DNA from: Acidimicrobiales bacterium
GTDB lineage: Bacteria; Actinomycetota; Acidimicrobiia; Acidimicrobiales; RAAP-2
DNA length: 64,000 bases
NCBI GenBank assembly: GCA_038210245.1
Contig: JBBQWW010000009.1
Location: 2,037 to 66,036, forward strand
Direction: 5' to 3'
Below are positions 11,195 to 37,146 of the stretch, piece by piece (position 1 is the first letter of the stretch; every line of letters begins with the position of its first letter). A model generated the notes under the pieces. The model was not told where the DNA came from, searched no databases, and saw only the letters and a program-made list of their open reading frames with translations. The position numbers were made by a program, and so were the translations under genes.

Positions 11195-11209
11195 CTGACG
11201 CTGTATCAG
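11195..11209. promoter_or_regulatory. Operator-like dyad (degenerate copy): CTGACGCTGTATCAG
   Basis: Member of the CTGACG-N3-CGTCAG family (see findings). It lies in the divergent SDR/echA intergenic region. Confidence 0.4.
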
Positions 11210-11354
11210 ATCACGCCGAGTGGGACCCCGCTCTCCGGCTCTGCGGCTCCCGGTGTCCCGGGACCGGGGACCGGCTTCGGGAGTGGGGCCATCCACCGAC
11301 CTTCACCACCCACCGAGTCCCCCGTCGACTCCCACCGACCGCCCGGAGCCCTGT

Positions 11355-12113
11355 ATGCCCATCACCGTCCACCAGAACGCTCCCGGGATCGCCGAGGTGG
11401 TCATCGACCACCCCCCGGTCAACGCTCTCGACGTGGCCGGCTGGTTCGGACTGGCCGACGCGGTGCTGGCCGCCGGACGGGTGCCCGACAACCGGGTGGT
11501 CATCGTGCGGGCCGAGGGGCGGGGCTTCTGTGCCGGAGTGGACATCAAGGAGATCCAGGCCCGAGGCGACGAGGCCCTGATCGGGGCCAACCGGGGCTGC
11601 TTCGCCGCCTTCGCCGCCGTCTACGAGTGCGAGGTTCCGGTCATCGCCGCCGTCCACGGGTTCTGTCTGGGCGGCGGCGTGGGCATCGCCGGCAACGCCG
11701 ACATCGTGGTGGCCTCCGACGATGCCACCTTCGGTCTGCCCGAGGTGGACCGGGGGGCCCTCGGAGCCGCCACCCACCTGTCGCGGCTGGTCCCCCAGCA
11801 CCGGATGCGATCGATGGTCTACACCGCCGAGCCGGCCAGCGCCGCCGAGCTCCACCACTACGGCTCGGTGCTCCGGGTGGTGCCTCGAGACCAGTTGGTA
11901 GCCACGGCCTATGAGGTGGCCGCGACCATCGCCACCAAGTCTCCGACCATTCTCCGTCGGGCCAAGGAGTCGCTCAACGGGATCGACCCGGTGGACGTGA
12001 AGGGCAGCTACCGGCTCGAGCAGGGATTCACCTACGAACTGCACGTGGCCGGTGTGGCCGACGAGCAGCGCGCCGCCTTCGTCGAGAAGCGCGACGCCGA
12101 CACCAGCAGATAG
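11355..12113 (+). CDS. Enoyl-CoA hydratase/isomerase (EchA20-position)
   Basis: Starts MPITVHQNAPGIAEVVIDHPPVNAL. Crotonase oxyanion-hole motifs GRGFCAGVDI and VHGFCLGGG are present. Confidence 0.88.
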   Translation: MPITVHQNAPGIAEVVIDHPPVNALDVAGWFGLADAVLAAGRVPDNRVVIVRAEGRGFCAGVDIKEIQARGDEALIGANRGCFAAFAAVYECEVPVIAAVHGFCLGGGVGIAGNADIVVASDDATFGLPEVDRGALGAATHLSRLVPQHRMRSMVYTAEPASAAELHHYGSVLRVVPRDQLVATAYEVAATIATKSPTILRRAKESLNGIDPVDVKGSYRLEQGFTYELHVAGVADEQRAAFVEKRDADTSR

Positions 12114-12121
12114 GGGCAGGC

Positions 12122-13039
12122 GTGTCTGACAAACGATTGACACTGGACGAGTTCGTCGGCGAGCTCCGCAGCGGGATGACCATCGGGATCGGCGGATGGG
12201 GATCCCGGCGTAAGCCCATGGCCGCCGTCAGGGCCATCCTGCGCAGCGACCTCACCGATCTGACCGTGGTGTCCTACGGAGGACCTGACGTCGGCCTGCT
12301 GTGTGCGGCCGGCAAGGTCAGTACGGCTGTCTACGGCTTCGTCACCCTCGACTCCATCCCGACCGACCCCCACTTCAAGGCGGCCCGCCAGGCCGGCGCC
12401 ATCGAGTGCGTGGAGCTCGATGAAGGCATGTTCTACCTGGGCCTCATGGCCGCCTCGCAACGGGTGCCGTTCCTCCCCACCCGGGCCGGCCTGGGTTCCG
12501 ACGTACTGGTGGTCAACCCGTCGCTGCGCACCGTGGTCTCGCCCTACGACGACGGCGAGGAGCTGGTGGCGGTGCCGGCCCTCCGGCTCGATGCCGCCCT
12601 GGTCCACGTGAATCGGGCCGACACCAAGGGGTCCGGTCAGGTACTCGGACCCGATCCCTTCTTCGACGAGCTGTTCCTTGGAGCGGCCGACCGCCGCTTC
12701 ATGACCACGGAACGCATCGTGGAGACCGACCAGTTCGCCTCCGAGGGCCCCCTCCAGACCATGTGCATCAGCCGGCTGCTCACCGACGGGGTGATCGAGA
12801 CCGAGGGGGGGGCCCACTTCACCGCCTGCGTTCCCGACTACTCGCGGGATGAGGCGTTCCAGAAGGAGTACGTGGCCGCCGCCGGGGATCCCGAGGCCTG
12901 GGCCGCCTTCACCGAGCGGTTCCTGTCCGTGGACGAGCCCGCCTACCAGGTTGCCGTGGGCCAAGCCACCGTGGAGAGGAAGGCCCGGATCGCCGCCGAG
13001 AAGGCCGCAGCTGCGGCCGGCCCAGGGGAGGCCTCATGA
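12122..13039 (+). CDS. ipdA: CoA-transferase subunit A (IpdA-like)
   Basis: The N-terminus LDEFVGELRSGMTIGIGGWGSRRKPMAAVRAILRSDLTDLTVVSYGGPDVG is typical of the glutaconate-CoA-transferase-like alpha subunit. The symbol rests on synteny (echA-A-B-NMO). Confidence 0.75.
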   Translation: MSDKRLTLDEFVGELRSGMTIGIGGWGSRRKPMAAVRAILRSDLTDLTVVSYGGPDVGLLCAAGKVSTAVYGFVTLDSIPTDPHFKAARQAGAIECVELDEGMFYLGLMAASQRVPFLPTRAGLGSDVLVVNPSLRTVVSPYDDGEELVAVPALRLDAALVHVNRADTKGSGQVLGPDPFFDELFLGAADRRFMTTERIVETDQFASEGPLQTMCISRLLTDGVIETEGGAHFTACVPDYSRDEAFQKEYVAAAGDPEAWAAFTERFLSVDEPAYQVAVGQATVERKARIAAEKAAAAAGPGEAS

Positions 13040-16490: not shown

Positions 16491-16513
16491 GATTGGCCAT
16501 TGTGCCGCCAATC
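16491..16513. promoter_or_regulatory. Inverted repeat GATTGGC-N9-GCCAATC
   Basis: Perfect 7-bp arms within the AT-rich 325-bp spacer upstream of the ketosynthase gene. Confidence 0.35.
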
Positions 16514-16546
16514 CAAGTGAGCAATAATCTGGGGCAGCCGTACCTG

Positions 16547-21117: not shown

Positions 21118-22323
21118 CTACCCCAGCCGTTCGATGATGGTGGCGTTGGCCTGGCCACCGCCTTCGCACATGGTCTGGAGTCCGTAGCGGGCTCCGGTGC
21201 GCTCCATCTCGTTGAGCAGTGTGGACAGCAGGCGGGCCCCCGAGCCTCCGGTGGGATGGCCGATGGCGATGGCCCCTCCGTTGACATTGACCTTGTCCAT
21301 GTCCGGGTGGTGCTCCTTCTCCCAGGCCAGTACCACGGAGGCGAAGGCCTCGTTGATCTCGACGAGGTCGATGTCGTCCAGGGACAGCTTCGACTTCTCC
21401 AACACCAGGGTGGTGGCCGGGATGGGTGCGGTCAGCATGATGACGGGGTCGTTGGCGGCCACGGCGAAGGTGTGGAACCGGGCACGAGGGGTGAGACCCA
21501 ACTGCCCGGCCCTCTCCTCGGACATGACCAGGACGGCGGCGGCCCCGTCGGAGATCTGCGAAGAGCTGGCCGCGGTGATCAGGCCGTTCTCGATGAACGC
21601 CGGGGGCAGGCTGGCCAGCTTCTCGTAGGTGGAGCCGGCCCGTACCCCTTCGTCGAAGGTCAGGGGACCCTCGTCGGCCGGATCGCCCTCGTCGGTGCCG
21701 GCCACCGCCACCTTGTCCACGATCTGGGCGCGGCGGGTGGCCAGGGGGATGATCTCATTGTCGAACCGCCCCTCGGCGATGGCCCGCGCCGCCCGGTCGT
21801 GGGACTGGAGGGCGTAGCGGTCCATGGCTTCCCGGGTAATCCCCCACCGGCGGGCGATCTCCTCGGCGCTGAGCCCTTGGTGGATGAAGTCGAAGCGGTC
21901 GTGGACGGTGGGTCCGTAGGCCTCTCCGGGTCCATGGTCGGTGGTGGCCCCGATGGGCACCCGACTCATCGACTCCACGCCGCCTCCGATCACGATGTCC
22001 ATCGCACCCGACATCACGGCCTGGGCGGCGAAGTGCACGGCCTGCTGGGCCGACCCGCACTGCCGGTCCACGGTGGTGCCGGGCACGGTGTCGGGGAAGC
22101 CGGCGGCCAGAGCGGCGTTGCGCCCGATGTTCATGGCCTGCTCGCCCACCGTCATGGTGCACCCGTAGATGACGTCCTCCACCTGGGCCGGATCGAGACC
22201 GTTCCGCTCCACCAGGGCCCGGAGGGGCTGAGCGGCCAGATCCACCGCGTGCCACCCGGACAGGCGACCGTTCTTCCTCCCCACCGGGGTCCGGACGACG
22301 TCGACGATCACAGCGTTGGGCAT
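21118..22323 (-). CDS. Acetyl-CoA C-acyltransferase (thiolase, FadA-like)
   Basis: 401 aa. Active-site Cys context VDRQCGSAQQA. C-terminal NVNGGAIAIGHPTGGSG and QTMCEGGGQA. Confidence 0.92.
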   Translation of the reverse strand: MPNAVIVDVVRTPVGRKNGRLSGWHAVDLAAQPLRALVERNGLDPAQVEDVIYGCTMTVGEQAMNIGRNAALAAGFPDTVPGTTVDRQCGSAQQAVHFAAQAVMSGAMDIVIGGGVESMSRVPIGATTDHGPGEAYGPTVHDRFDFIHQGLSAEEIARRWGITREAMDRYALQSHDRAARAIAEGRFDNEIIPLATRRAQIVDKVAVAGTDEGDPADEGPLTFDEGVRAGSTYEKLASLPPAFIENGLITAASSSQISDGAAAVLVMSEERAGQLGLTPRARFHTFAVAANDPVIMLTAPIPATTLVLEKSKLSLDDIDLVEINEAFASVVLAWEKEHHPDMDKVNVNGGAIAIGHPTGGSGARLLSTLLNEMERTGARYGLQTMCEGGGQANATIIERLG

Positions 22324-22355: not shown

Positions 22356-22382
22356 GGAAATCTGGCGGTGTGTCAGATTTCC
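22356..22382. promoter_or_regulatory. Operator-like perfect inverted repeat GGAAATCTG-N9-CAGATTTCC containing the dyad CTGGCGGTGTGTCAG
   Basis: Located in the divergent thiolase/ACAD intergenic region. The 15-bp core is at 22362-22376. Confidence 0.55.
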
Positions 22383-22459
22383 CCTACCCTTGCCCCCGGC
22401 CCCAACCGGCCCAGCACCAGCCCAGCCCGAAACCGATGGACCCCACCATGGACACTCCG

Positions 22460-23626
22460 ATGGACCTGCGCTTCACCGCCGCCCATGAGGCCTTCCGGGC
22501 CGAGGCGCGCTCATGGCTGGCCGACCACGTCCCGCCGCCCCGGTCGCTGCCCTCCCTCGACACCGCCGAGGGGTTCGAGGCCCACCGGGCCTGGGAGCAG
22601 ACCATGTTCGAGGACCGGTGGTCGGTGGTGTCGTGGCCCGAGGCGTTCGGTGGCCGGGGCGTGGGCATCCTCGAGTGGCTCATCTTCGAGGAGGAGTACT
22701 GGCGGGCGGAGGCCCCCCTTCGGGTCAGTCAGAACGGCGTGTTCCTGCTGGCCCCCACCATGTTCGAGTTCGGCACCCCCTCCCAGCAGGAGCGCTACCT
22801 GCCGGCCATGGCCTCGGCCCGCCAGATCTGGTGCCAGGGCTGGTCCGAGCCCGACGCCGGATCGGACCTGGCCGGCATCCGCAGCCGGGCGGTTCGGGCC
22901 CCGGGCGACGACGGCTGGCTACTGACCGGCCAAAAGACCTGGGCCTCTCGCGGGGCCTTCGCCGAATGGTGCTTCGGACTGTTCCGCACCGATCCGGAGG
23001 CCGAGCGCCACCGAGGGCTCACCTACTTCCTCGTGGACATGAGCACCCCCGGGGTCACCGTGCGGCCCATTCCCCAGATCGACGGGGAGACCGGCTTCGC
23101 CGAGCTGTTCTTCGAGGAGGTCTTCGTCCCCGACGACCAGGTACTCGGGGGCGTGGGCCAGGGTTGGAGCGTGGCCATGGCCACGGCCGGCTCGGAACGG
23201 GGGCTCAGCCTGCGGAGCCCAGCCCGGTACAGCGAGGCCGCCGGTCGGCTGGTGGCGCTCTACGGCGACAAGCTGGCCGAGGACCCGGTGCGGGCCTCCC
23301 GCACCGCCGATGCCGTGGCCCAGGCCTGGATGGACGCTGAGGCCTACCGGCTCAACACGCTGTGGACGGCCACCCGGGTCCTCGGCGGCGGTTCGGTCGG
23401 GCCCGAGGCCAGCGCCAACAAGATCCACTGGTCGGAGACCGACCTGGCCATCCACCGGGCCGCCCTGGCCCTGCTGGGCCCCGAAGCCGAGTGGCACGGC
23501 GACGGCGTGGACGCCCCCTGGCTCGACGGGTACCTCTTTGCCCTGGCCGGCCCGATCTATGCCGGGACCAACGAGATCCAACGCAACGTGGTGGCCGAGC
23601 GCATGCTCGGGCTGCCCCGGGCCTGA
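22460..23626 (+). CDS. Acyl-CoA dehydrogenase (long subunit of a pair)
   Basis: Start chosen at MDLRFTAAHEAFRAEARSWL, parallel to the paralogue at 30277 (MDLRYTDAEQAF). Motifs WCQGWSEPDAGSD and YAGTNEIQRNVVAERMLGLP are present. Confidence 0.88.
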   Translation: MDLRFTAAHEAFRAEARSWLADHVPPPRSLPSLDTAEGFEAHRAWEQTMFEDRWSVVSWPEAFGGRGVGILEWLIFEEEYWRAEAPLRVSQNGVFLLAPTMFEFGTPSQQERYLPAMASARQIWCQGWSEPDAGSDLAGIRSRAVRAPGDDGWLLTGQKTWASRGAFAEWCFGLFRTDPEAERHRGLTYFLVDMSTPGVTVRPIPQIDGETGFAELFFEEVFVPDDQVLGGVGQGWSVAMATAGSERGLSLRSPARYSEAAGRLVALYGDKLAEDPVRASRTADAVAQAWMDAEAYRLNTLWTATRVLGGGSVGPEASANKIHWSETDLAIHRAALALLGPEAEWHGDGVDAPWLDGYLFALAGPIYAGTNEIQRNVVAERMLGLPRA

Positions 23627-23645
23627 GCGGGACGGATCGGGCACG

Positions 23646-24686
23646 GTGCACTTCGCCTTCTCCGAACAGCAGACCGAGTTCCGTGACGCCGTGCGCCAGG
23701 TGCTGGCCAAGGAGTGCACCACCGGCCATCTCCGGGCCGCCTTCGAGCATCCAGAGGCCCGGGGCCCGAGGTGGAGCACCCTCACCGAGCTGGGCGTGGT
23801 CCCCCTGACCGTCCCGGAAGCCCAGGGCGGCCTCGGCCTCGGCCTGGTGGACCTCGTCCTGGTGTTGGAGGAGGCCGGTCAGGTGGCCCTCCCCGAGCCG
23901 TTGCTCGAGACCACCGCCCTGGTCGCGCCACTCCTGGCTGGGTTGGACGCCGGTGCCGGCACCGGCAGTTTGGAGGCCCTGGCGGCCGGCCGGGTGGCGG
24001 CGGCCGTGGCCCCGACCTCGGCGGCACAGGCCCCGGTGCCCGGTGCGGACGGGGCCGACCTGTTGGTCCTCGCCACCGGAACCGAGGCCGACGGGAACCT
24101 CGAACTCCACCTGGTGGACGCGGCCTCCACGACCGTCGACCCGGTCTCCTCCCTCGACCCCACCCGGCGCCTCGGGATCCCCCGGTGGACTCCCACGCCG
24201 GCCACCCGGGTGGCGTCCGGACCGGCGGCGGCCCGGGCCATGGCCGTCACCGCCGACCGGGCAGCCACCGCCACCGCCGCCGAGCTGCTCGGTCTGACCG
24301 GGCGGATGATCACCATGACCGCCGAGTACGCCAGGGAGCGCCAGCAGTTCGGGAAGCCCATCGGCAGCTTTCAGGCCGTGAAGCACCTCTTGGCCGGTGC
24401 CCAGGTGCGGTTGGAGTTCGCCCGGCCCGTGGTCTACGGCGCAGCGTGGGCCCTCGACAATGGCACCCGGGACTCGTCGCGCGCCGCCTCGGTGGCCAAG
24501 GCCTACGCCTCCGATGCCGCCACCGAGGCCGCCCGGGTGTCCCTGCAGGTGCACGGAGCCATCGGCTACACCTGGGAGTGCGACCTGCAGCTCTTCTTGA
24601 AGCGGGCGTGGGCGTTGGCCGAGGCGTGGGGCTCGGCCGCCGACCACCGCGCCCGGGTGCTCGACAGCCTGGTCACCGGAAGCTGA
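23646..24686 (+). CDS. Acyl-CoA dehydrogenase family protein (short subunit of a pair)
   Basis: GTG start, VHFAFSEQQTEFRDAV.... C-terminal ACAD block QFGKPIGSFQAVKHLLA...GAIGYTWE. Confidence 0.85.
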   Translation: MHFAFSEQQTEFRDAVRQVLAKECTTGHLRAAFEHPEARGPRWSTLTELGVVPLTVPEAQGGLGLGLVDLVLVLEEAGQVALPEPLLETTALVAPLLAGLDAGAGTGSLEALAAGRVAAAVAPTSAAQAPVPGADGADLLVLATGTEADGNLELHLVDAASTTVDPVSSLDPTRRLGIPRWTPTPATRVASGPAAARAMAVTADRAATATAAELLGLTGRMITMTAEYARERQQFGKPIGSFQAVKHLLAGAQVRLEFARPVVYGAAWALDNGTRDSSRAASVAKAYASDAATEAARVSLQVHGAIGYTWECDLQLFLKRAWALAEAWGSAADHRARVLDSLVTGS

Positions 24687-28989: not shown

Positions 28990-29004
28990 CTGACGGACCG
29001 TCAG
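28990..29004. promoter_or_regulatory. Operator-like perfect palindrome CTGACGGACCGTCAG (7-1-7)
   Basis: Lies 23 nt upstream of the amidohydrolase ATG. Outer arms CCTGGT/ACCAGG flank it. Confidence 0.55.
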
Positions 29005-29026
29005 ACCAGGCTGTAGACTCGGCTCC

Positions 29027-30226
29027 ATGGCCGACATGCCCTGGATCATCTCCGTAGACGACCACGTGGTGGAACCACCCAATGTGTGGATGGACCGCCT
29101 CCCGAAGAAGTACCACGACGTGGGTCCGAGGATCGTGCGCGCCCCGATGGGGGAGATCACCTTCGTCGGGGGCAAGCTCACCGTGGTACCCGGGTCGGAG
29201 GGCTTCCCCACCGACTGGTGGTACTACGAGGACCTGAAGCGTCCCCTGCTTCGTGTCGACTCTGCCGTGGGCGTACCCCGGGACGAGGTGACCATGCGGG
29301 GCGTGACCTACGGGGACATGCGCCCCGGCTCCTACGAGGTCAAGCCCCGGCTCGAGGACATGGACCTGAACCACCTCGAGGCCTCGCTGTGCTTCCCGAC
29401 CTTCCCCCGATTCTGCGGGCAGACCTTCACCGAGGCCAGCGACAAGGAGCTCGGCCTCCTGTGCGTCAAGGCCTACAACGACTGGATGGTCGACGAGTGG
29501 TGCGGCCCCGAAGCCAAGGGCCGGCTCATTCCGCTGTGCCTGGTCCCGCTGTGGGATGCTGAGCTGGCCGCCGCCGAGGTGCGTCGCAACGCCGCCCGCG
29601 GCGTACGGGCGGTCTGTTTCAGTGAGATCCCGCCGTTCCTCGGACTGCCCTCGGTCCACGATCCCGACCACTACTGGGACCCGTTCTTCCGGGCCTGCGA
29701 GGAGACCGGCACCGTCGTCAACATGCACATCGGCTCGTCGTCCAAGATGCCATCCACGTCGGCCGACGCCCCACCGGCCGTGGGGTCGACGCTGACCCAC
29801 TCCAACGCCACGTACTCCATGGTCGACTTCATGTTCTCCGGCGTGCTGGTGCGGTTTCCCGAACTCAAGCTGGCCTACGCCGAGGGGCAGATCGGATGGA
29901 TCCCGTACATCCTCGAGCGGGCCGACACCGTCTGGGAGGAGAACCGGGGGTGGGGAGGAGTGGCCGACATCGTGCCCGAGCCTCCCTCGACCTACTTCTA
30001 CCGCCAGATCTACGGCTGCTTCTTCAGCGACGCCTTCGGCCTGAAGAACATCGACTCCATCGGGGTGGACAACATCACCTACGAGTCCGACTACCCCCAC
30101 TCCGACAGCACATGGCCCGAGACCCGCCAGATCGCCGAAAAGCAGATGAAGGACCTCACCGAGGAGCAGATCTACAAGATCGTCCGGGGCAACGCCATCA
30201 AGCTCTACGGCCTCGACTTCAAGTGA
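29027..30226 (+). CDS. Amidohydrolase-2 (ACMSD/LigW-type metal-dependent hydrolase or decarboxylase)
   Basis: 399 aa. IISVDDHVVEPP near the N-terminus (metal His). YESDYPHSDSTWP near the C-terminus. Confidence 0.8.
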   Translation: MADMPWIISVDDHVVEPPNVWMDRLPKKYHDVGPRIVRAPMGEITFVGGKLTVVPGSEGFPTDWWYYEDLKRPLLRVDSAVGVPRDEVTMRGVTYGDMRPGSYEVKPRLEDMDLNHLEASLCFPTFPRFCGQTFTEASDKELGLLCVKAYNDWMVDEWCGPEAKGRLIPLCLVPLWDAELAAAEVRRNAARGVRAVCFSEIPPFLGLPSVHDPDHYWDPFFRACEETGTVVNMHIGSSSKMPSTSADAPPAVGSTLTHSNATYSMVDFMFSGVLVRFPELKLAYAEGQIGWIPYILERADTVWEENRGWGGVADIVPEPPSTYFYRQIYGCFFSDAFGLKNIDSIGVDNITYESDYPHSDSTWPETRQIAEKQMKDLTEEQIYKIVRGNAIKLYGLDFK

Positions 30227-30276
30227 TCCGGCTGGTGGACCACTCCTCGGTCCTGCGGGCTTAGGGGCCCGCTCCC

Positions 30277-31506
30277 ATGGACCTCCGCTACACCGACGCC
30301 GAGCAGGCGTTCCGGGGAGAGCTGCGCCACTGGCTGGCCACCACCCTCCCCGGCCTGCCGCCCAAGCCCGCTCCCACCGACTGGCCCGGCCGCCGCGCCT
30401 ACGACACCCACTGGCAGCGCCTGCTGTTCGACGCCGGCTACGCCGGGGTCGATTGGCCCGTCGAAGGAGGCGGCCGGGGCTCTTCCCCCGTCGAGGAACT
30501 GGTGTTCAAGGAGGAGTTGGAACGGGCCCACGCTCCCTACGTGGGGGTCAACTTCGTCGGTCTCCTGCACGCCGGTCCCACCATCATCGCCGAGGGCACC
30601 CCCGAGCAGCGACAGCGCTACCTTCCGGCCATCCTCAACGGTGACGAGGTCTGGTGCCAGGGCTTCTCCGAGCCCGATGCCGGATCCGACCTGGCCTCCA
30701 TGCGCACCCGTGCCGTCCGCGACGGCGACCACTACGTCGTCACCGGATCGAAGATCTGGACCTCGCACGCCGAAGTGGCCGACCACTGTGAGCTCCTGGT
30801 CCGGACGGGCGAGGACGACAGCCGACACCGTGGCATCTCGTGGCTGATCCTGCCCATGGACACACCGGGGGTGGAGATCCGCCCGTTGACCACCATCGCC
30901 GGCTCCACCGAGTTCGCCGAGCTCTTCCTCGACGAGGTCCGGGTCCCCGTGGCCAACCGGGTCGGCGACGAGAACGACGGTTGGCGCGTGACCATGGTCA
31001 CACTGAGCTTCGAGCGCGGCACGGCCTTCGTGGGCGACCTGCTCGAGGCCTTCGAGCTCCTGTCGGCCACGGTGGCCTTGGCCCGACGGACCGGGGCGTG
31101 GGACGACGCCGGCATTCGTCGCCAGGCCGGGCACCTGCGGGCCGAGCTGGACGCACTGTGGGCCCTCACCAAACGCAACGTGTCCCAGGCCGCCCGGACC
31201 GGTATCCCCGGTGTGGGCGGGACGTTCTTCAAGCTGGCCTACACCGAGACCCGCTCCAAGCTCGGCGAGTACTCCCTCTCCCTCCTCGGGCGGGCCGCTC
31301 TGGCCGCCGACGACGTCGAGGGAGCGGACGGGCTGGGACCCCTGCCGTCGGCCACCATGGTGGAGGACTGGCTGCGGGGCATCTCCCTGACCATTGCCGC
31401 CGGCACCTCCCAGATCCAGCGGAACATCGTCGGCGAGCGCATTCTCGGGCTCCCGAAGGAGCCGTCCGGGCCGCCCAAGCCGGCCGCGGCCCGAGTCCCG
31501 TCATGA
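30277..31506 (+). CDS. Acyl-CoA dehydrogenase (long subunit of a pair)
   Basis: 409 aa. WCQGFSEPDAGSDLAS and AAGTSQIQRNIVGERILGLP are present. Confidence 0.88.
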   Translation: MDLRYTDAEQAFRGELRHWLATTLPGLPPKPAPTDWPGRRAYDTHWQRLLFDAGYAGVDWPVEGGGRGSSPVEELVFKEELERAHAPYVGVNFVGLLHAGPTIIAEGTPEQRQRYLPAILNGDEVWCQGFSEPDAGSDLASMRTRAVRDGDHYVVTGSKIWTSHAEVADHCELLVRTGEDDSRHRGISWLILPMDTPGVEIRPLTTIAGSTEFAELFLDEVRVPVANRVGDENDGWRVTMVTLSFERGTAFVGDLLEAFELLSATVALARRTGAWDDAGIRRQAGHLRAELDALWALTKRNVSQAARTGIPGVGGTFFKLAYTETRSKLGEYSLSLLGRAALAADDVEGADGLGPLPSATMVEDWLRGISLTIAAGTSQIQRNIVGERILGLPKEPSGPPKPAAARVPS

Positions 31507-31600
31507 GCGGTGGGCGGCGCCGGGCGACCTTCCATCCGACGATGACGAACCAAGCCGGGCACCCCCCCGACGAACGGCCCGCGGACCACGAGGAGCGACG

Positions 31601-32617
31601 GTGGACTTCGAACTGACCGAGGTCCAGTCCGAGCTGGCCGACGGCGTGCGTCGCCTGGGCGAAGGCCAGTTCCGACTCGACCATCTCCGTACCCTCGAGT
31701 CGGAAGGCCAGGTGGTCGACCGGCAGGGCTGGCGGCAGCTGGGGGAGGCGGGCGTGTTCAACCTGTGCCGGCCCGAGTCGGAGGGTGGGGTGGGCCTGGG
31801 CCTGGCCGAAGCGGCCCTGGTCTTCGAGGAACTGGGGCGGGCACTGGTCCCCGGACCTCTGGTGGCCACGCACCTGGCGGCCGGATCGGTCGACGGCGCT
31901 GATGACGGCTCCGTGGTGGTGGGGCTGCTCGAAGCCGACCGAACTGGCGACCGCGCCGCCCTGCCCCTGATCGTCGAAGGACTCGATGATCTCGACGTGC
32001 TGATGGTGCTGTCCGACGACGGCGTGACGGCCATCGACCCCGCCGCTGTGGACGCCACCCGGCTGCAGCGGCCCATGGACCCCCTGACCCCGGTGTGGGC
32101 CATCCCCTCCCCGTCCACCCTTCCCCGGGGCACCCCGGTGGCCGGACCCGACGTGGCCGCCCGCTGGCGTCGGGACGGAGCCGTGCTCACCGCCGCCCTG
32201 CAGGTCGGCGCGGCGACGTGGGTGACCGACCTGGCCGTCGAGTACGCCAAGCAGCGCCGGCAGTTCGGTCGGCCCATCGGTGGGTTCCAAGCCGTCAAGC
32301 ACCTCTGCGCCGACATGGCCGTACGAGCCGAGGTGGCCCGCTGTGCCGTGCACGCCGCGGCGGTCACCGCCGACCAGCCCGATGTCGGCGACGCCGCCTC
32401 GGCGGCGGCGGGGGCCAAACTGCTGGCCGACGAGGCCGCCATTGCCAATGGCCGGTCCTGCATCCAGGTTCACGGGGGGATGGGGTTCACCTGGGAGGTG
32501 CCGGCCCATCTGGCCTACAAGCGGGCCCGAGTACTAGCCACCCGTTTCGGGACGGACGATCAGTTGGCCGAGCAGCTGGCCCTGTCCATCCCCGTCCCCA
32601 CCGGCGACGTACGCTGA
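31601..32617 (+). CDS. Acyl-CoA dehydrogenase family protein (short subunit of a pair)
   Basis: GTG at 31601 after AGGAG plus 5 nt; starts VDFELTEVQSELADGV. QFGRPIGGFQAVKHLCADM...GGMGFTWE is present. The track's 31394 start is rejected. Confidence 0.85.
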   Translation: MDFELTEVQSELADGVRRLGEGQFRLDHLRTLESEGQVVDRQGWRQLGEAGVFNLCRPESEGGVGLGLAEAALVFEELGRALVPGPLVATHLAAGSVDGADDGSVVVGLLEADRTGDRAALPLIVEGLDDLDVLMVLSDDGVTAIDPAAVDATRLQRPMDPLTPVWAIPSPSTLPRGTPVAGPDVAARWRRDGAVLTAALQVGAATWVTDLAVEYAKQRRQFGRPIGGFQAVKHLCADMAVRAEVARCAVHAAAVTADQPDVGDAASAAAGAKLLADEAAIANGRSCIQVHGGMGFTWEVPAHLAYKRARVLATRFGTDDQLAEQLALSIPVPTGDVR

Positions 32618-32621
32618 GCCG

Positions 32622-33602
32622 GTGAGCGCCTCCCCGGTCCCCCTGCCCTCCAACGTGGTGCCCGTGCTCCCCTCTGGTCGCACCGTCTTCGGGATGCAGC
32701 TCCCCATCCAGTCGCAGTCCACCATCTACACCCAGGCCTGGGAGACAGCGGCGGGACCGGACGAACTGGCCACCGTGGCCCTGGCCTGTGAGGCGGCCGG
32801 CTTCTTCTACGTGGGCGTCTGCGATCACACCTTCATTCCCGAGCGGCTGGCCGGGGCCATGAGCACCACCTGGTACGACACGGTGGCCACCCTCGGTTGG
32901 CTGGCCGGGGTCACCACCACGGTCCGGCTCCTCTCCCACATCTACGTGGTGGCCCTCCGCCATCCGCTCCGGGCGGCCAAGGAGTTCACCACCCTCGACG
33001 CCCTGTCCAAGGGCCGGGTCATCTGCGGCGTGGGCGCCGGCCACGTCACCGAGGAGTTCGACCAGATGGGACCGCCGTTCGACCACCGGGGCCCGGCCAC
33101 CGACGAAGCCATCGCCGGGCTGGTCGCCGGGCTGGAGAACGAGTTCCCCGTCCTCGACGGTCCCACCTGGAAGGCGTCGGGCCTCGGCCTCAGGCCCCGG
33201 CCGGTGCAGTCCCCCCGTCCTCCCATCTGGACCGGGGGCTCGTCGCCCGCCGCCCTGAGACGGACGGCCCGGTTCGCCGATGGCTGGCTGCCCCAATCGC
33301 TCGGGCCCAACGTCGAGTTACTCGTCGACCTGCACCGGATGCGTGAGGAGTACCGACCCGGGGCCCCTCTCGACATCGGTGCCATCGCCGCCCCGTTCCA
33401 CGTCGGCCCACCCCCATCCGGCTTCGACCTCCCGCCGGGAACGGTGTCGGGTACCCCCGAGGAGATCGCCGAGTACCTGCGTCCGTTCTCGGCCGCCGGC
33501 GTCGGTCAGGTGCAGGTCCGCTTCCCCACCGGGTCGGTGGAGGAGCAGTGCGAACAGATCGCCGGCTTCGGTGAAACAGTCATCCCGCTGATCGACGCCT
33601 GA
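32622..33602 (+). CDS. LLM-class (luciferase-like) flavin/F420-dependent oxidoreductase
   Basis: 326 aa. FFYVGVCDHTF, VVALRHPL and ...TGGSSPAALRRTARFADGWLP are typical of LLM-class enzymes. Confidence 0.78.
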   Translation: MSASPVPLPSNVVPVLPSGRTVFGMQLPIQSQSTIYTQAWETAAGPDELATVALACEAAGFFYVGVCDHTFIPERLAGAMSTTWYDTVATLGWLAGVTTTVRLLSHIYVVALRHPLRAAKEFTTLDALSKGRVICGVGAGHVTEEFDQMGPPFDHRGPATDEAIAGLVAGLENEFPVLDGPTWKASGLGLRPRPVQSPRPPIWTGGSSPAALRRTARFADGWLPQSLGPNVELLVDLHRMREEYRPGAPLDIGAIAAPFHVGPPPSGFDLPPGTVSGTPEEIAEYLRPFSAAGVGQVQVRFPTGSVEEQCEQIAGFGETVIPLIDA

Positions 33603-33630
33603 CCGTCGGTCGGTGACTTCCCCGGCCCGG

Positions 33631-34236: not shown

Positions 34237-35039
34237 GAGTGGCCGTCTCCGATCGACGGGGAACTGACACCGGCGGCACGGAGTGCGGTGGTGGCCCGCA
34301 GCCGGATCTCGCGGGCCACTTCGAACTGACGTCCGGGCAGGGTCCGGGCGATCAGTCGGAGTTGCACATAGCCCACGTCGATGGTCTCCACACCGGCCAC
34401 CACCGGATCGCCGAGGAGGAGCCCCTGCCATTCGGGGTCAGCGGCCATGTCGGAGAACATGTCCTTTAACAGCCCCGTGACCCGTTCGAGATCCTCGGTC
34501 ACCGACACGGGGATGTCGATCACCGCCCGGGACCAGTCCTTGGACAGGTTGGTCACCTGGCGGAGCGCACTGTTGGGCACCACCACCAGCTCTCCCTGGG
34601 CGGTCCTCACCTTGGTGACCCTCAGGGTGAGCTCCTCCACCGTGCCGGTGATACCCGTGGCCTGGCCGGGGATCGACAGCCGGATGACGTCACCGAAGGC
34701 GAACTGGTGCTCGGCGAAGAGGAAGAAGCCGGCCAGCAGGTCGCCCACCATCTGTTGAGCCCCGAAGCCGAGTCCGATGCCGATCACGGTGGCCGGGGCC
34801 ACGAGGGTGGTGAGGGGTATCCCCAACCGGCCCAGGGCCAGGATGGCCGTGACGAAGCCCACCAAGGCCACCGCCACCCACTCCACGGCCTCGCTCACCG
34901 CCCGGGACCGCTTCAGACTCTCGGAGGCCACCTCGCCCGACTCGATCTGGGCCCGGATCTGACCGTCGACCCAGCTGCGGCGGCGGGCCCCCACCCAGTG
35001 GGCGAACCGGATGAAGAGTCCGGCTCCGAGTACGAGCAC
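34233..35039 (-). CDS. MscS-family mechanosensitive ion channel
   Basis: 268 aa. Pore-lining helix IGIGLGFGAQQMVGDLLAGFFLFAEHQFAFGDVI and a beta-domain follow. Confidence 0.88.
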   Translation of the reverse strand: MLVLGAGLFIRFAHWVGARRRSWVDGQIRAQIESGEVASESLKRSRAVSEAVEWVAVALVGFVTAILALGRLGIPLTTLVAPATVIGIGLGFGAQQMVGDLLAGFFLFAEHQFAFGDVIRLSIPGQATGITGTVEELTLRVTKVRTAQGELVVVPNSALRQVTNLSKDWSRAVIDIPVSVTEDLERVTGLLKDMFSDMAADPEWQGLLLGDPVVAGVETIDVGYVQLRLIARTLPGRQFEVAREIRLRATTALRAAGVSSPSIGDGHS

Positions 35040-35196
35040 GACGGCAGGGAGCAGGTGGTTCTGTAACCAAGCGTGGGTGATCCCCGGAAAATACCATCCA
35101 GGTGGCCGTGGGCCCCGTCCCCCACCCGCGGGCTCCGGTGGAACCGGGCCATCGGCCGGTGCCGCCCTTGAGCGGGAACCCCGGGCGTACCGTAAA

Positions 35197-35211
35197 CTGA
35201 CGGTCTGTCAG
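35197..35211. promoter_or_regulatory. Operator-like dyad CTGACGGTCTGTCAG (within AACTGAC-N5-GTCAGTT)
   Basis: Lies 76 nt upstream of the ATG at 35287. Confidence 0.55.
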
Positions 35212-35286
35212 TTCTGGACAGGACCTCGTACCTCGACGTCGCGGCCCGGTCCCACGATCCTCACCACCCCACGGAGGCACTACACC

Positions 35287-37020
35287 ATGCTCGACTACGT
35301 GATCCGCAACGGCTTGGTCGTGGACGGCACCGGGGCGCCCGGGCGTCGGGCCGACGTGGGGGTCCGCCACGGCCGGATCGTGGCCGTGGGCGAGATCGAC
35401 GAACGGGGCACCACCGAGCTGGATGCCGAAGGGCTGGTGGTGGCGCCGGGGATCATCGACCCCCATACCCACTACGACGCCCAGCTGTTCTGGGACCCTA
35501 CGGCGTCCCCGTCCAACCTCCACGGCGTGACCACGGTGATCGGGGGGAACTGCGGCTTCACCCTGGCCCCCATCAAGGCTGAGGACCACGACTACATCCG
35601 CCGGATGATGGCCAAGGTGGAGGGCATGCCCCTGGTGGCCCTGGAGGACGGCCTCCCGTGGGACTGGACCAGCTTCGGCGACTACCTGGGCAAGCTCGAA
35701 GGCAACCTCGGGGTCAACGCCGGCTTTCTGGTCGGCCACTGCGCCCTCCGGCGATGGGTGATGGGCGACGAGCGGGGCGCCGATGTTGCCACCGACGAAG
35801 AGGTGGCCGAGATGGCCGGGCTGCTGGCCGAGTCCCTCGAGGCGGGTGGTCTGGGCTTCTCGTCCTCGCAGTCCCGGACCCACTCCGACGGTGACGGGAA
35901 CCCCATCTCGTCCCGCCACGCCGACCGGCGTGAGATGTTGGCCTTCTGCGAGGTGGTGCGGGACCATCCCGGGACCACCCTCGAGTACATCACCAACGGT
36001 TGCCTGGACACCTTCACCGAGGAGGAGATCGACCTCATGGTGGCCATGACCACCACGGCGCGCCGCCCACTCAACTGGAACCTGCTCACCATCGACTCAC
36101 GTACCCCGGACAAGACCACCCGCCAGCTCGAGGCATCGGTCAGAGCCGCCGAGGCCGGGGGGCGCATCGTGGCGCTGACCATGCCCACCCTGGTGCCGAT
36201 GAACATGAGCTTCCGTACCCACTGCGCCCTCTTCCTCATCCCCGGCTGGGGTGACGTGATGGGCCTGCCGGTGGAACAGAGGATCGAGAAGCTGTCCGAC
36301 CCGGCCGTGCGGGAGCAGCTCGACGAGTTGGCCCACTCCGAAGGGGCCGGGGTGTTCCGTCGGCTGTCCCACTGGGCCAACTACATCATCGGCGACACCT
36401 TCGCCCCGGAGAACGAGGGCCTCAGCTGGAGGGATGTTGGCTCCATCGCCGAGGAGCAGGGCAAGCCCCCCTTCGACGCCCTGCTCGACCTGGTCATCGC
36501 CGACGAGCTCCGCACGGTGCTGTGGCCCAAGGCCTCCGACGGGGACGACGCCTCGTGGCAGGCACGGGTCGACGTGTGGAACGACCCCGGCGCCATGGTG
36601 GGTGGCTCCGATGCCGGCGCCCACCTCGACCGGATGTGCGGCTCCAACTACCCCACCTCCTTCTTGGGTGACTGCCTCCGGAAGCGGAAGTTGGTCCCAC
36701 TGGAGCGCGCCATCCAGCTGATGACCGAGGCACCGGCGGAGCTCTTCGGCCTGCACGACCGGGGCCGGATCGCCGAGGGCCTGTGCGCCGACCTCTTCGT
36801 CTTCGACCCCGAGACGGTGGGATCGGAGCCGGCCACACTGGTCCACGACCTCCCCGGCGGGAGCCCCCGCCTCATCGCCGACGCCATCGGCGTGGTACGG
36901 GTCCTGGTCAACGGCGTCGAGACCATCGCCGACGGAAAGCCCACCGGCCACCTTCCCGGCACCCTGCTCAAGTCCGGTCAAGACACCGTCACCGTCGACC
37001 CCTCGCCGGCCGGGGTCTGA
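35287..37020 (+). CDS. N-acyl-D-amino-acid deacylase (D-aminoacylase)-family amidohydrolase
   Basis: Starts MLDYVIRNGLVVDGTGAPGRRADVGVRHGRIVAVGEI...VAPGIIDPHTHYD. 577 aa. The track's 35011 start is rejected. Confidence 0.82.
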   Translation: MLDYVIRNGLVVDGTGAPGRRADVGVRHGRIVAVGEIDERGTTELDAEGLVVAPGIIDPHTHYDAQLFWDPTASPSNLHGVTTVIGGNCGFTLAPIKAEDHDYIRRMMAKVEGMPLVALEDGLPWDWTSFGDYLGKLEGNLGVNAGFLVGHCALRRWVMGDERGADVATDEEVAEMAGLLAESLEAGGLGFSSSQSRTHSDGDGNPISSRHADRREMLAFCEVVRDHPGTTLEYITNGCLDTFTEEEIDLMVAMTTTARRPLNWNLLTIDSRTPDKTTRQLEASVRAAEAGGRIVALTMPTLVPMNMSFRTHCALFLIPGWGDVMGLPVEQRIEKLSDPAVREQLDELAHSEGAGVFRRLSHWANYIIGDTFAPENEGLSWRDVGSIAEEQGKPPFDALLDLVIADELRTVLWPKASDGDDASWQARVDVWNDPGAMVGGSDAGAHLDRMCGSNYPTSFLGDCLRKRKLVPLERAIQLMTEAPAELFGLHDRGRIAEGLCADLFVFDPETVGSEPATLVHDLPGGSPRLIADAIGVVRVLVNGVETIADGKPTGHLPGTLLKSGQDTVTVDPSPAGV

Positions 37021-37131
37021 CCGCCAGCCCACCCCGGCTCCCGACGGCAGCCGTCCACCGCCGGCCCCTCCGCCCACCGCGGGGTAGGACCGGCCCTCGA
37101 TCTGCCGGGTCTGCACCCACGGCCTACACTG

Positions 37132-37146
37132 CTGACGAGGCGTCAG
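37132..37146. promoter_or_regulatory. Operator-like perfect palindrome CTGACGAGGCGTCAG (6-3-6)
   Basis: Lies 81 nt upstream of the ATG at 37227. Confidence 0.55.

What the first reader, a model, noticed from the sequence alone, without database searches (positions are those of the whole stretch)
11195..37146. Recurrent 15-bp dyad CTGACG-N3-CGTCAG marks five promoters of scattered catabolic genes, suggesting an undescribed regulon
Five intergenic sites share one palindromic frame. They are 11195 CTGACGCTGTATCAG (degenerate), 22362 CTGGCGGTGTGTCAG, 28990 CTGACGGACCGTCAG (perfect 7-1-7), 35197 CTGACGGTCTGTCAG and 37132 CTGACGAGGCGTCAG (perfect 6-3-6). The 22362 site sits inside the perfect repeat GGAAATCTG-N9-CAGATTTCC. 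The sites precede the SDR/echA-ipdABC-like divergon, the thiolase/ACAD-pair divergon, the amidohydrolase-ACAD-ACAD-LLM operon, the aminoacylase-like amidohydrolase and the aldehyde dehydrogenase. Three of them lie 76-84 nt before the start codon. The other CTGACG hexamers I noticed inside coding sequence have no dyad partner. A rough base-composition estimate gives well under one chance match to CTGNCG-N4-GTCAG in 64 kb. The motif does not resemble the KstR or KstR2 operators as I remember them. The two divergent TetR genes at 41445-42968 are the nearest candidate regulators.
Basis: partly seen in the sequence, partly recalled or inferred. Interest (0 to 1): 0.7.

Follow-up and report, generated by a model that had tools for sequence, protein, structure and literature searches.

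The report
Operator sites of a TetR catabolic regulon
The 15-base palindrome CTGAC-N5-GTCAG on five promoters in this window is a real, deeply conserved binding site for a repressor, most likely the uncharacterised TetR-family regulator encoded nearby; it switches a ring-degrading (steroid- or terpenoid-type) gene set in uncultured soil Acidimicrobiales, which is a new example of a familiar kind of switch.

Summary
Sites 11195 and 22362 are not above chance within the window alone.

Footprinting across about 80 species of uncultured Acidimicrobiales shows that all five are conserved upstream of the same orthologous genes, while the flanking DNA is not. Each box overlaps a core promoter element: the -35 region at two promoters, and the -10/+1 region at three. 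The half-sites CTGAC and GTCAG never co-vary, so this is a protein-binding DNA operator and not an RNA hairpin.

The target genes form one pathway. It resembles the mycobacterial KstR2 (steroid ring C/D) regulon, with a DitZ-like diiron oxygenase added.

One of the two local TetR genes, TetR-B (42366-42968), is a KstR paralogue. Its helix-turn-helix is nearly identical to that of KstR, so it should bind a different box.

The other, TetR-A (41445-42242, Pfam TetR_C_38), is the likely regulator:
- About 43 of 79 orthologues carry the box on their own promoter.
- The gene stays linked to box-bearing promoters in three different gene arrangements.
- A collinear lineage that lacks the gene has lost the boxes.

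Verdict: an undescribed but conventional TetR repressor regulon.

The parts
11195..11209 (.). Box 1, CTGACGCTGTATCAG (10/12). It lies in the SDR / enoyl-CoA hydratase divergent region, directly after a TACTGT -10-like hexamer (11188-11193).
   Evidence: Orthologous boxes are present in L039, L062, L165, L167 and L168, and absent in L166, L169 and L170.
22356..22382 (.). Box 2, core CTGGCGGTGTGTCAG (22362-22376), inside the 9-9-9 inverted repeat GGAAATCTG...CAGATTTCC. It lies in the thiolase / acyl-CoA dehydrogenase divergent region. TACCCT (22385-22390) follows it on the + strand. CACAAT (22335-22330) precedes the thiolase ATG on the - strand.
   Evidence: The box is conserved nearly letter for letter: 44 of 59 orthologous regions match at 10/12 or better.
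28990..29004 (.). Box 3, CTGACGGACCGTCAG (12/12, a 7-1-7 palindrome). It is followed by 9 nt, TAGACT (29014-29019), 7 nt and the ATG at 29027. The box covers the -35 region of an apparently leaderless promoter.
   Evidence: 76 of 77 orthologous promoters match at 11/12 or better, at a fixed 20-29 nt from the start codon. Information content is about 2.0 bits per position in the half-sites and 0.13 in the upstream flank.
35197..35211 (.). Box 4, CTGACGGTCTGTCAG (11/12). It overlaps the 3' end of the TAAACT -10-like hexamer (35193-35198), 76 nt before the ATG at 35287.
   Evidence: 49 of 49 orthologous promoters carry it, with the context gTAAACTGACGGTCTGTCAG conserved.
37132..37146 (.). Box 5, CTGACGAGGCGTCAG (12/12). 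It starts 1 nt after the TACACT -10-like hexamer (37125-37130), 81 nt before the ATG at 37227.
   Evidence: 38 of 47 orthologous promoters carry it, with the context cTACACTgCTGACG...CGTCAGat conserved. In L042 the hexamer is displaced by 6 nt and the box is kept.
41445..42242 (-). TetR-A, the predicted cognate repressor (265 aa; TetR_N + TetR_C_38; recognition region TPWRSIKVIDIARQAGTSPATFYQYFENVE).
   Evidence: Pfam. No NCBIfam model matches. PDB hits reach only the helix-turn-helix. Orthologue promoters carry the box.
42366..42968 (+). TetR-B, a KstR paralogue (200 aa; TetR_N + TetR_C_20). It is divergent from TetR-A and is not expected to bind the CTGAC box.
   Evidence: PDB KstR 5cw8 matches at E 1.7e-30 over the full length, with a nearly identical helix-turn-helix. 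NF033703 scores 157 bits, below the 280-bit cut-off. KstR-type boxes lie at its promoter in L070 and L138-L159.
10328..11164 (-). Target gene: short-chain dehydrogenase, in the position of Rv3549c.
   Evidence: gene order compared with PMC3068626.
11355..14972 (+). Target operon: enoyl-CoA hydratase (PRK07938 type), CoA-transferase alpha and beta subunits (IpdAB-like) and an NMO-family oxidoreductase (IpdC-like). A P450 gene (15076-16323) and a ketosynthase-like gene (16493-17869) follow.
21118..22323 (-). Target gene: thiolase. 'Steroid 3-ketoacyl-CoA thiolase' is among its NCBIfam hits, below that model's cut-off.
22448..24686 (+). Target operon: a pair of acyl-CoA dehydrogenase genes. The second (about 23640-24686) has no hit to the middle domain.
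29027..33602 (+). Target operon: DitZ-like amidohydrolase-related diiron oxygenase (29027-30226), an acyl-CoA dehydrogenase pair (30277-31506 and about 31510-32617) and an F420-type LLM oxidoreductase (32622-33602).
35287..37020 (+). Target gene: Amidohydro_3 protein, D-aminoacylase-like.
37227..38696 (+). Target gene: aldehyde dehydrogenase.

Best explanation
The dyad, core CTGAC-N5-GTCAG with optimum aCTGACGnnCCGTCAGa, is the DNA operator of a dimeric transcriptional repressor. The repressor shuts off at least five promoters of one catabolic pathway, and it is most likely TetR-A (41445-42242, Pfam TetR_C_38).

Mechanism, with each step marked:
1. Shown from sequence and conservation: at the oxygenase operon, at the thiolase gene in the short-spacer lineages, and at TetR-A orthologues, the box covers the -35 position, 9-10 nt (17 nt in one TetR-A group) upstream of a TAnnnT -10 hexamer that sits 6-9 nt before the start codon. 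At the hydratase operon, the aminoacylase-like gene and the aldehyde dehydrogenase gene, the box abuts or overlaps the 3' side of the -10 hexamer, that is, the transcription start.
2. Inferred: a bound dimer excludes RNA polymerase.
3. Inferred by analogy with KstR, KstR2 and FadR-type TetR repressors: a pathway intermediate, probably a CoA thioester of a polycyclic acid, binds the C-terminal domain and releases the repressor.
4. Inferred from gene content: the regulon degrades the last rings of a steroid- or terpenoid-type compound.

Sub-confidences: operator of a transcription factor, about 0.95; acts as a repressor, about 0.8; the factor is TetR-A, about 0.65-0.7. The overall confidence given is for the whole statement, including the TetR-A assignment.
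For: Enrichment: 4 exact sites against 0.31 strand hits expected, and 3 sites at 11/12 or better against 0.27 expected.

Footprints in 80 species-level genomes:
- 76/77 oxygenase promoters, 49/49 aminoacylase-like, 38/47 aldehyde dehydrogenase and 44/59 thiolase/ACAD promoters carry the box.
- The hydratase promoter carries it in 5 of 8 orthologues examined (L039, L062, L165, L167, L168); L166, L169 and L170 lack it.
- Conservation drops sharply outside the box: 2.0 against 0.13 bits per position.
- Of 178 hits at 11/12 or better in 1.58 Mb, all but about four are at these promoters. About 6.7 such hits are expected by chance.

No covariation: CTGAC and GTCAG are invariant, and changes at positions 6/10 are uncompensated (A-C in 18 oxygenase promoters).

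Position: the box sits upstream of the -10 in some promoters and downstream of it in others.

TetR-A link:
- A box matching at 10/12 or better lies on the promoter of about 43 of 79 TetR-A orthologues, where about 4 are expected by chance. It lies on the TetR-A side of the intergenic region, while a KstR-type box lies on the TetR-B side.
- The TetR-A recognition region is invariant at 71-95% identity, and GTSPATFYQYFENVE is kept at 57-62%.
- The gene lies next to box-bearing promoters in three different arrangements: the window type, L171 and L172.
- The collinear loci L161-L164 lack the TetR_C_38 gene and have lost both boxes. L172 keeps the gene and both boxes.
Against: - No binding or expression data exist.
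- In the window's own lineage (W, L081, L083-L086) the TetR-A promoter has no box, so autoregulation is not universal. L070 and L172 also lack it.
- One subgroup has a different palindrome, TGCGAYC-N3-GRTCGCA, in the TetR-A/TetR-B spacer.
- The presence/absence test rests on one lineage. A TetR_C_38 copy elsewhere in that genome cannot be excluded.
- Linkage of TetR-A with the aldehyde dehydrogenase gene in close relatives is partly inherited synteny.
- The -10 hexamers and leaderless starts are inferred from conservation. The E. coli-type promoter scan found nothing.
- Many metagenome loci are near-duplicates, so 43/79 overstates the number of independent cases.
Confidence: 0.68

Rival explanations
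1. The box is a genuine operator, but its regulator is encoded elsewhere in the genome. It could be another TetR or a factor of a different family, and TetR-A would regulate something else.
For: The window lineage has no box at the TetR-A promoter. Only about 20-64 kb per genome could be inspected. The box on TetR-A promoters could mean that TetR-A is a target rather than the binder.
Against: No other regulator gene is found next to any box in 2.4 Mb of related loci. TetR_C_38 stays within 5 kb of boxes in three different arrangements, and its loss coincides with loss of the boxes.
Confidence: 0.2
2. The KstR-like TetR-B (42366-42968) binds the CTGAC box.
For: It is adjacent, belongs to a family that controls this type of pathway, and remains in L161-L164.
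Against: - Its DNA-reading region (QMRDVAARADVAMGTVYRYFTSKDHL) is almost identical to that of M. tuberculosis KstR.
- KstR-type boxes (TAGAACGGGTTCCG, TGGAACCGGTTCTA) lie at the -35 of its own promoter in L138-L159 and L070.
- L161-L164 keep TetR-B but have no CTGAC boxes.
Confidence: 0.05
3. The palindrome acts as an RNA hairpin in the 5' leader (an attenuator or stability element), or as a promoter -35 element for an alternative sigma factor.
For: Boxes 1, 4 and 5 lie downstream of the putative -10 and would be transcribed. CTGACG resembles TTGACA, and in two promoters it sits 18 nt from the -10.
Against: - There is not one compensatory change in about 240 sites, and mismatches are uncompensated.
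- Boxes 2 and 3 and the TetR-A boxes lie upstream of the start.
- Both half-sites are equally conserved, and the distance to the -10 varies from overlap to 17 nt.
- No Rfam family matches.
Confidence: 0.03
4. The five matches are chance occurrences of a G+C-rich palindrome.
For: Boxes 1 and 2 are at background frequency within the window.
Against: (enrichment). (conservation in up to 76 of 77 species at the same promoters).
Confidence: 0.01

Closest known systems
KstR2 regulon of Mycobacterium and Rhodococcus: a TetR repressor with operator AnCAAGnnCTTGnT that controls the HIP / steroid ring C-D genes Rv3548c-Rv3565 (PMC3068626)
   Same: - A TetR-type palindromic operator lies in divergent intergenic regions of a small local regulon.
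- The SDR <> enoyl-CoA hydratase, CoA-transferase alpha and beta, oxidoreductase divergon has the same gene order as Rv3549c <> Rv3550-Rv3553, with the operator in the same intergenic region.
- A thiolase and acyl-CoA dehydrogenase pairs are also members.
- A KstR homologue is encoded alongside.
   Different: - The operator sequence and geometry differ: 15 bp CTGAC-N5-GTCAG against 14 bp AnCAAGnnCTTGnT. There are no KstR2 boxes in the window.
- The candidate regulator belongs to another TetR subfamily (TetR_C_38). It has no PDB relative beyond the helix-turn-helix.
- The regulon also holds a DitZ-like oxygenase, an F420-type LLM, a D-aminoacylase-like protein and an aldehyde dehydrogenase.
- The host is uncultured Acidimicrobiales.
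KstR (Rv3574) regulon, operator TnnAACnnGTTnnA (motif as I recall it; the KstR operator is described only as a 14-bp palindrome in PMC3068626)
   Same: A KstR paralogue (TetR-B) sits in the locus, and KstR-type boxes precede it in related genomes.
   Different: The CTGAC box is unrelated in sequence. No KstR box lies at any promoter of the window. TetR-B scores below the NCBIfam KstR cut-off: 157 against 280 bits.
FadR-type TetR repressors of fatty-acid degradation (Bacillus FadR/YsiA, Thermus FadR) and PaaR (from my own knowledge)
   Same: They are acyl-CoA-responsive TetR dimers with operators of about 15 bp that overlap promoters of dehydrogenase, hydratase and thiolase genes. Bacillus FadR is among the weak PDB hits of TetR-A (3whb).
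   Different: Similarity is confined to the helix-turn-helix. The operator consensus is different. The ligand here is unknown.
Diterpenoid (abietane) catabolic dit cluster with the DitZ hydroxylase, and PtmU3 of platensimycin biosynthesis (PMC13154177)
   Same: The first gene of the box-3 operon matches DitZ (8uyr) at E 5e-63. It has the D-x-H and D-x-P-H-x-D motifs that define amidohydrolase-related dinuclear oxygenases.
   Different: The remaining genes here are of the steroid ring C/D type, not dit genes. Substrate and regulation are unknown.

Membership tests
TetR-family repressor with palindromic operator | Short (about 15 bp) inverted-repeat operator with sequence-specific half-sites | tested here: met
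   CTGAC-N5-GTCAG. The half-sites are invariant in about 240 orthologous sites and show no covariation.
TetR-family repressor with palindromic operator | Operator overlaps the core promoter (-35, -10 or +1) of the regulated genes | tested here: inconclusive
   Conserved TAnnnT hexamers lie 9-10 nt downstream of the box, or abut or overlap its 5' end, and starts look leaderless. No transcription start data exist, and the sigma-70 consensus scan found no promoter.
TetR-family repressor with palindromic operator | A TetR-family gene genetically linked to the operators | tested here: met
   TetR-A lies 4.3 kb from box 5. Linkage is kept in L018, L020, L023, L052, L070, L081-L160, L171 and L172.
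TetR-family repressor with palindromic operator | Autoregulation: the operator lies on the regulator's own promoter | tested here: inconclusive
   Met in about 43 of 79 orthologues. Not met in the window itself, nor in L070 or L172.
TetR-family repressor with palindromic operator | Direct binding of the protein to the operator, and release by a ligand | not testable with these tools
   This needs EMSA or DAP-seq and ligand titration.
KstR2 regulon | Operator AnCAAGnnCTTGnT | tested here: not met
   0 matches with <=1 mismatch in the window. Motif taken from PMC3068626.
KstR2 regulon | Regulator orthologous to KstR2 | tested here: not met
   Sequence and profile searches of TetR-A against the PDB give only helix-turn-helix-level hits (EthR, FadR and others), and no NCBIfam model matches. 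That KstR2 structures are present in the PDB is from my own knowledge.
KstR2 regulon | Gene content: SDR <> echA20-ipdA-ipdB-ipdC, thiolase, fadE pairs | tested here: met
   Same order and families, compared with Table 4 of PMC3068626. Orthology was not tested by phylogeny.
KstR regulon | Operator TnnAACnnGTTnnA at the regulated promoters | tested here: not met
   5 matches with <=1 mismatch against 3.0 expected, none at a cluster promoter. There are only 2 exact matches in 1.58 Mb of related loci.
cis-acting RNA hairpin / Rfam family | Base pairing maintained through compensatory changes; match to a curated model | tested here: not met
   No change on both sides at any pair, and uncompensated A-C and G-A combinations occur. 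Rfam reports only a tRNA at 680-752.

The most novel reading that the evidence does not exclude
The CTGAC-box regulon outlines a previously unrecognised pathway in widespread, uncultured peat and soil Acidimicrobiales for degrading polycyclic plant or microbial lipids (diterpenoid resin acids, steroids or hopanoids). The pathway would combine a DitZ-type diiron oxygenase with IpdAB-type hydrolytic ring opening and heteromeric acyl-CoA dehydrogenases. A new TetR subfamily (TetR_C_38, with a conserved C-terminal tail) would govern it by sensing a CoA-thioester intermediate. That subfamily would act alongside a KstR paralogue as the functional replacement for KstR2.
Probability: 0.3. Interest if true: 0.55.

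Novelty: new member of a known kind. Interest (0 to 1): 0.36.

Why it matters
Almost no transcription factor of the class Acidimicrobiia has a known binding site. Here the comparative signal is strong enough to design probes directly. The data supply an operator consensus, five or six target promoters, a named candidate repressor, and a built-in negative control in the neighbouring KstR paralogue.

The regulon also groups genes annotated as unrelated 'amidohydrolases', dehydrogenases and CoA-transferases into one pathway. That pathway resembles degradation of the last steroid or terpenoid rings, in organisms abundant in peat, palsa and bog metagenomes. This bears on the turnover of recalcitrant plant lipids.

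In kind, however, it is a conventional TetR repressor and operator arrangement, not a new mechanism.

Tried and rejected
- Literature text searches for the motif string (CTGACGN, CTGAC-N, CTGACnnn and similar) returned only primers and barcodes. This is weak evidence that the box is undescribed.
- The E. coli-type promoter scan over 22200-37400 found no promoter. It is unsuited to 70% G+C Actinomycetota, so the -10 assignments rest on conservation.
- KstR and KstR2 box searches in the window were negative.
- I looked for any other regulator next to the boxes in 80 genome loci. The neighbours without a window homologue turned out to be a DUF35/ChsH2-OB protein, an Ltp-type thiolase, an FtsH-like ATPase, membrane proteins and a two-component system. 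None is a plausible dedicated regulator.
- NCBIfam gave nothing for TetR-A. PDB sequence and profile searches gave only helix-turn-helix-level similarity.
- The 10/12 match at 26550 (GTGACGCCGCGTCCG) is conserved, but as the N-terminal coding sequence of the GDSL gene. The match at 34326 is inside the MscS gene. Both were rejected as operators.
- My first scripts were imperfect. One timed out. The crude G+C-at-third-position gene caller misplaced some start codons, so a number of promoter hits were flagged 'coding'. These were re-assigned using tblastn-anchored start codons.
- One look-up returned a locus without DNA; only its gene list was used.
- I did not predict a structure for TetR-A. Fold comparison among TetR proteins would not identify DNA specificity.

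Full report
**Provenance.** The window has 69.6% G+C. Its genes are 93-97% identical to those of soil MAGs labelled uncultured Acidimicrobiaceae or Acidimicrobiales.

**The observation.** All five sites are at the stated coordinates.
No shuffle of 100 reaches 6.
- Scored against CTGACG-N3-CGTCAG, three sites (28990, 35197, 37132) match at 11/12 or better, against 0.27 expected.
- Sites 11195 and 22362 match 10/12. That class is as frequent as chance: 7 observed against 5.4 expected. The window alone therefore supports three sites. The other two need outside evidence.

**Gene context** (Pfam and NCBIfam).
- Box 1 lies between a short-chain dehydrogenase (10328-11164, minus strand) and an operon. 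The operon encodes an enoyl-CoA hydratase (true start 11355, because homologues are uniformly 252 aa), two CoA-transferase subunits and an NMO-family oxidoreductase.
- Box 2 lies between a thiolase (21118-22323, minus strand) and a pair of acyl-CoA dehydrogenase genes.
- Box 3 precedes an Amidohydro_2 gene, a second dehydrogenase pair and an F420-type LLM oxidoreductase.
- Box 4 precedes an Amidohydro_3 gene whose closest solved relative is D-aminoacylase.
- Box 5 precedes an aldehyde dehydrogenase.
- The only regulator genes found in the 64 kb are two divergent TetR genes: TetR-A (41445-42242, minus strand, TetR_C_38) and TetR-B (42366-42968, plus strand, TetR_C_20).

**Phylogenetic footprinting.** A scan of one genome per species returned 80 loci with the Amidohydro_2 orthologue (82-97% identity) and 10 kb on each side.
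- Upstream of that gene the sequence is unalignable, except for CTGACGnnCCGTCAG, then 9 nt, a TACACT or TAnnCT hexamer, 6-7 nt and the start codon.
- 76 of 77 usable loci have a box at 11/12 or better, always 20-29 nt from the start.
- Information content is about 2.0 bits per position in the half-sites, 1.6 in the hexamer and 0.13 in the 37 positions further upstream.
- Box 4 is present in 49 of 49 orthologous promoters, with the context gTAAACTGACGGTCTGTCAG.
- Box 5 is present in 38 of 47, with the context cTACACTgCTGACG...CGTCAGat.
- Box 2 is kept almost letter for letter (ttgccggaaatCTGGCGGTGTGTCAGatttcc). It matches at 10/12 or better in 44 of 59 thiolase promoters, including distant species where only the right half TGTGTCAGATT and a degenerate left half survive.
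- Box 1 could be checked in eight other genomes. It is present in L039, L062 (as a perfect CTGACGCTGCGTCAG), L165, L167 and L168. It is absent in L166, L169 and L170.
- In 1.58 Mb of these loci there are 178 hits at 11/12 or better, where about 6.7 are expected by chance. All but about four lie at these promoters.

**A protein-binding DNA site.** Across about 240 orthologous sites the outer five positions of each arm are essentially invariant. There is no compensatory double change at any pair. Changes at positions 6/10 are uncompensated, for example A opposite C in 18 oxygenase promoters and G opposite A in 7 aminoacylase-like promoters.
- An RNA hairpin would tolerate covarying pairs, so this argues against one. 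Rfam finds nothing but a tRNA.
- The box is not a fixed-distance promoter element. It is 9-10 nt upstream of the -10-like hexamer at the oxygenase promoter. It overlaps or directly follows the hexamer at boxes 1, 4 and 5 (TACTGTc-CTGACG, TAAACTGACG, TACACTg-CTGACG).
- In L042 the hexamer is displaced by six bases while both elements are retained.
- A site that covers the -35 position in some promoters and the start point in others is the classic layout of a repressor.
- The hexamers and the leaderless starts are inferred from conservation and from the TAnnnT consensus of Actinomycetota (my own knowledge). The E. coli-type scan found no promoters.

**The two TetR genes are not equivalent.**
- TetR-B matches M. 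tuberculosis KstR over its full length (E 1.7e-30). Its DNA-reading region is nearly identical: QMRDVAARADVAMGTVYRYFTSKDHL against QMRAVADRADVAVGTLYRYFPSKVHL. It scores 157 bits on the NCBIfam KstR model, below the 280-bit cut-off.
- TetR-A has no NCBIfam match. It shows only helix-turn-helix-level similarity to any solved structure, even when searched with a profile.

**Evidence linking TetR-A to the box.** A metagenome scan returned 80 loci centred on TetR-A orthologues (71-95% identity). In nearly all of them TetR-B is the divergent neighbour, and the cyclase and aldehyde dehydrogenase genes follow.
- In the most distant group (L138-L159) the spacer holds two boxes. One is a KstR-type box (TAGAACGGGTTCCG) at the -35 of the TetR-B promoter. 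The other is gaatCTGACAtgGCGTCAGc, followed by 9-10 nt, TAGCCT and the TetR-A start. This is the same geometry as the oxygenase promoter.
- A closer group has tttCTGACGcCCCGTCAT 17 nt upstream of the TetR-A -10. L128 and L131 have two boxes in tandem. L160 has a perfect CTGACGGACCGTCAG.
- About 43 of 79 orthologues carry a box at 10/12 or better just upstream of TetR-A, where about 4 are expected by chance. Several contigs are near-duplicates, so the number of independent cases is smaller.
- The recognition regions of both proteins are invariant throughout. Each box type can therefore be assigned to the regulator whose promoter it occupies, and the TetR-B assignment agrees with the known KstR operator.
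- An exact KstR-type box occurs only twice in 1.58 Mb. One of the two lies in front of the TetR-B orthologue of L070.

**Independent support from more distant relatives.**
- L171 (oxygenase 79% identical) has a different arrangement: a P450 gene divergent from oxygenase-LLM. It has a perfect box, and a TetR_C_38 gene lies 5 kb away.
- L172 is a 58% G+C relative with a compact cluster. It encodes TetR_C_38 and TetR_C_20 directly after the aldehyde dehydrogenase. It keeps CTGACGGTGCGTCAG at the oxygenase promoter and CTGATGGTGTGTCAG at the thiolase/dehydrogenase spacer.
- L161-L164 are collinear with L172 but lack the TetR_C_38 gene. Both boxes have decayed, although the adjoining TTTCCCGCTACGCT promoter sequence is retained.
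- The TetR_C_38 proteins of L171 and L172 are only 57-62% identical to TetR-A, yet they keep GTSPATFYQYFENVE exactly.

**Evidence against the TetR-A assignment.**
- The window's own lineage (W, L081, L083-L086), L070 and L172 have no box at the TetR-A promoter.
- One subgroup carries an unrelated palindrome there.
- The loss experiment is a single lineage, and only 21 kb of that genome was seen.
- I put the TetR-A assignment at about 0.65-0.7. I put the existence of a repressor operator regulon at about 0.95.

**What the regulon does** (inferred from gene content).
- The dehydrogenase <> hydratase, CoA-transferase alpha and beta, oxidoreductase divergon has the gene order of Rv3549c <> Rv3550-Rv3553 in M. 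tuberculosis. There, the same intergenic region carries a KstR2 operator (PMC3068626).
- The thiolase and the two dehydrogenase pairs also recall the steroid ring C/D (HIP) genes. In each pair the second member has no middle-domain hit.
- In more distant genomes all these genes, together with an Ltp-type thiolase and a DUF35/ChsH2-OB protein, form one contiguous cluster. The 'scattered' genes are therefore one pathway.
- The Amidohydro_2 protein is probably not a hydrolase. Its closest solved relative is the diterpenoid hydroxylase DitZ (8uyr, E 5e-63), followed by PtmU3. It has the D-x-H (DDH, residues 11-13) and D-x-P-H-x-D (DYPHSD, residues 355-360) motifs that define amidohydrolase-related dinuclear oxygenases (PMC13154177).
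- A polycyclic terpenoid or steroid acid, handled as a CoA thioester, is the most plausible substrate class. Such a thioester is the most plausible inducer, by analogy with KstR, KstR2 and FadR-type regulators (my own knowledge).

**Comparison with known systems.** The system works like the KstR2 regulon. It is not a member of it.
- The operator is different: 15 bp CTGAC-N5-GTCAG against 14 bp AnCAAGnnCTTGnT. No KstR2 or KstR boxes lie at these promoters.
- The candidate regulator belongs to another TetR subfamily.
- Text searches of the held literature for the motif found nothing relevant.
- I classify it as a new member of a known kind. It is an undescribed TetR-type operator and regulon in an uncultured lineage, well supported by comparative evidence and mechanistically conventional.

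Noticed in passing
window 29027-30226: The 'amidohydrolase' that heads the box-3 operon matches the diterpenoid hydroxylase DitZ (PDB 8uyr, E 5e-63). It carries the DDH (residues 11-13) and DYPHSD (residues 355-360) motifs of amidohydrolase-related diiron oxygenases, so it is probably an oxygenase and not a hydrolase. It is unusually conserved: 76-97% identity across Acidimicrobiales.
   Followed up: partly
window 42366-42968; L070:20742; L138-L159 TetR-A/TetR-B spacers: TetR-B is a KstR paralogue with a near-identical helix-turn-helix. KstR-type boxes (TGGAACCGGTTCTA, TAGAACGGGTTCCG) sit at the -35 of its promoter in distant relatives. In the window lineage they are replaced by a conserved GAAAnCCCTGGCGAG-TAGGGT promoter with no recognisable KstR box.
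   Followed up: partly
L095:9916, L101:1602, L102:9926, L106:5759, L107:9808, L110:833, L119:9916, L121:969, L136:2532: One subgroup of TetR-A/TetR-B spacers carries a different 17-bp palindrome, TGCGAYC-N3-GRTCGCA, about 70 nt upstream of TetR-A and in place of the CTGAC box. With one shorter look-alike excepted (L102:19572, TGCGATCTGGTCGCA), it occurs nowhere else in 2.4 Mb of fetched loci. Its binder is unknown.
   Followed up: partly
L170 about 5870-5890; L161 about 9955-9985 and 4975-5005: Operators turn over in relatives that lack the CTGAC box. L170 has the perfect palindrome ACTAGTGGCCACTAGT upstream of the hydratase gene. L161 has CTGGGC-N10-GCCCAG at the oxygenase promoter and TCACGC-N8-GCGAGA at the thiolase spacer.
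   Followed up: no
window 41445-41600 (C-terminal end of TetR-A): TetR-A has a tail of about 50 residues beyond the TetR fold. It includes a conserved PRTGP-x(2)-G motif that is kept even at 57% identity. Its function is unknown.
   Followed up: no
L062:15886-17634, L063:17584-19325, L073:18128-19288, L157, L159: In distant relatives the aldehyde dehydrogenase is divergent from an Ltp-type thiolase and a DUF35/ChsH2-OB protein, with the box in the shared spacer; two boxes are seen there in L142, L154, L157 and L159 only. This pair is typical of retro-aldol side-chain cleavage and could supply the aldehyde substrate.
   Followed up: partly
window 29014-29029, 22321-22335; many loci: Several genes of the cluster appear to be leaderless: a TAnnnT hexamer lies 6-9 nt before the start codon with no Shine-Dalgarno sequence. 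These are the oxygenase, thiolase, TetR-A and TetR-B genes. The aminoacylase-like and aldehyde dehydrogenase genes instead have leaders of 76-81 nt with GGAGG- or AGGGG-type ribosome-binding sites.
   Followed up: no
window 33599-33613 and 28758-28772: Two further one-mismatch matches to CTGAC-N5-GTCAG lie in intergenic DNA. CTGACCGTCGGTCGG overlaps the stop codon of the LLM gene, and CTGACTCACTGTCCG lies 230 nt upstream of box 3. Their conservation was not examined, and they are probably chance matches.
   Followed up: no
window 680-752 (minus strand): A tRNA gene is the only Rfam match in the window.
   Followed up: no
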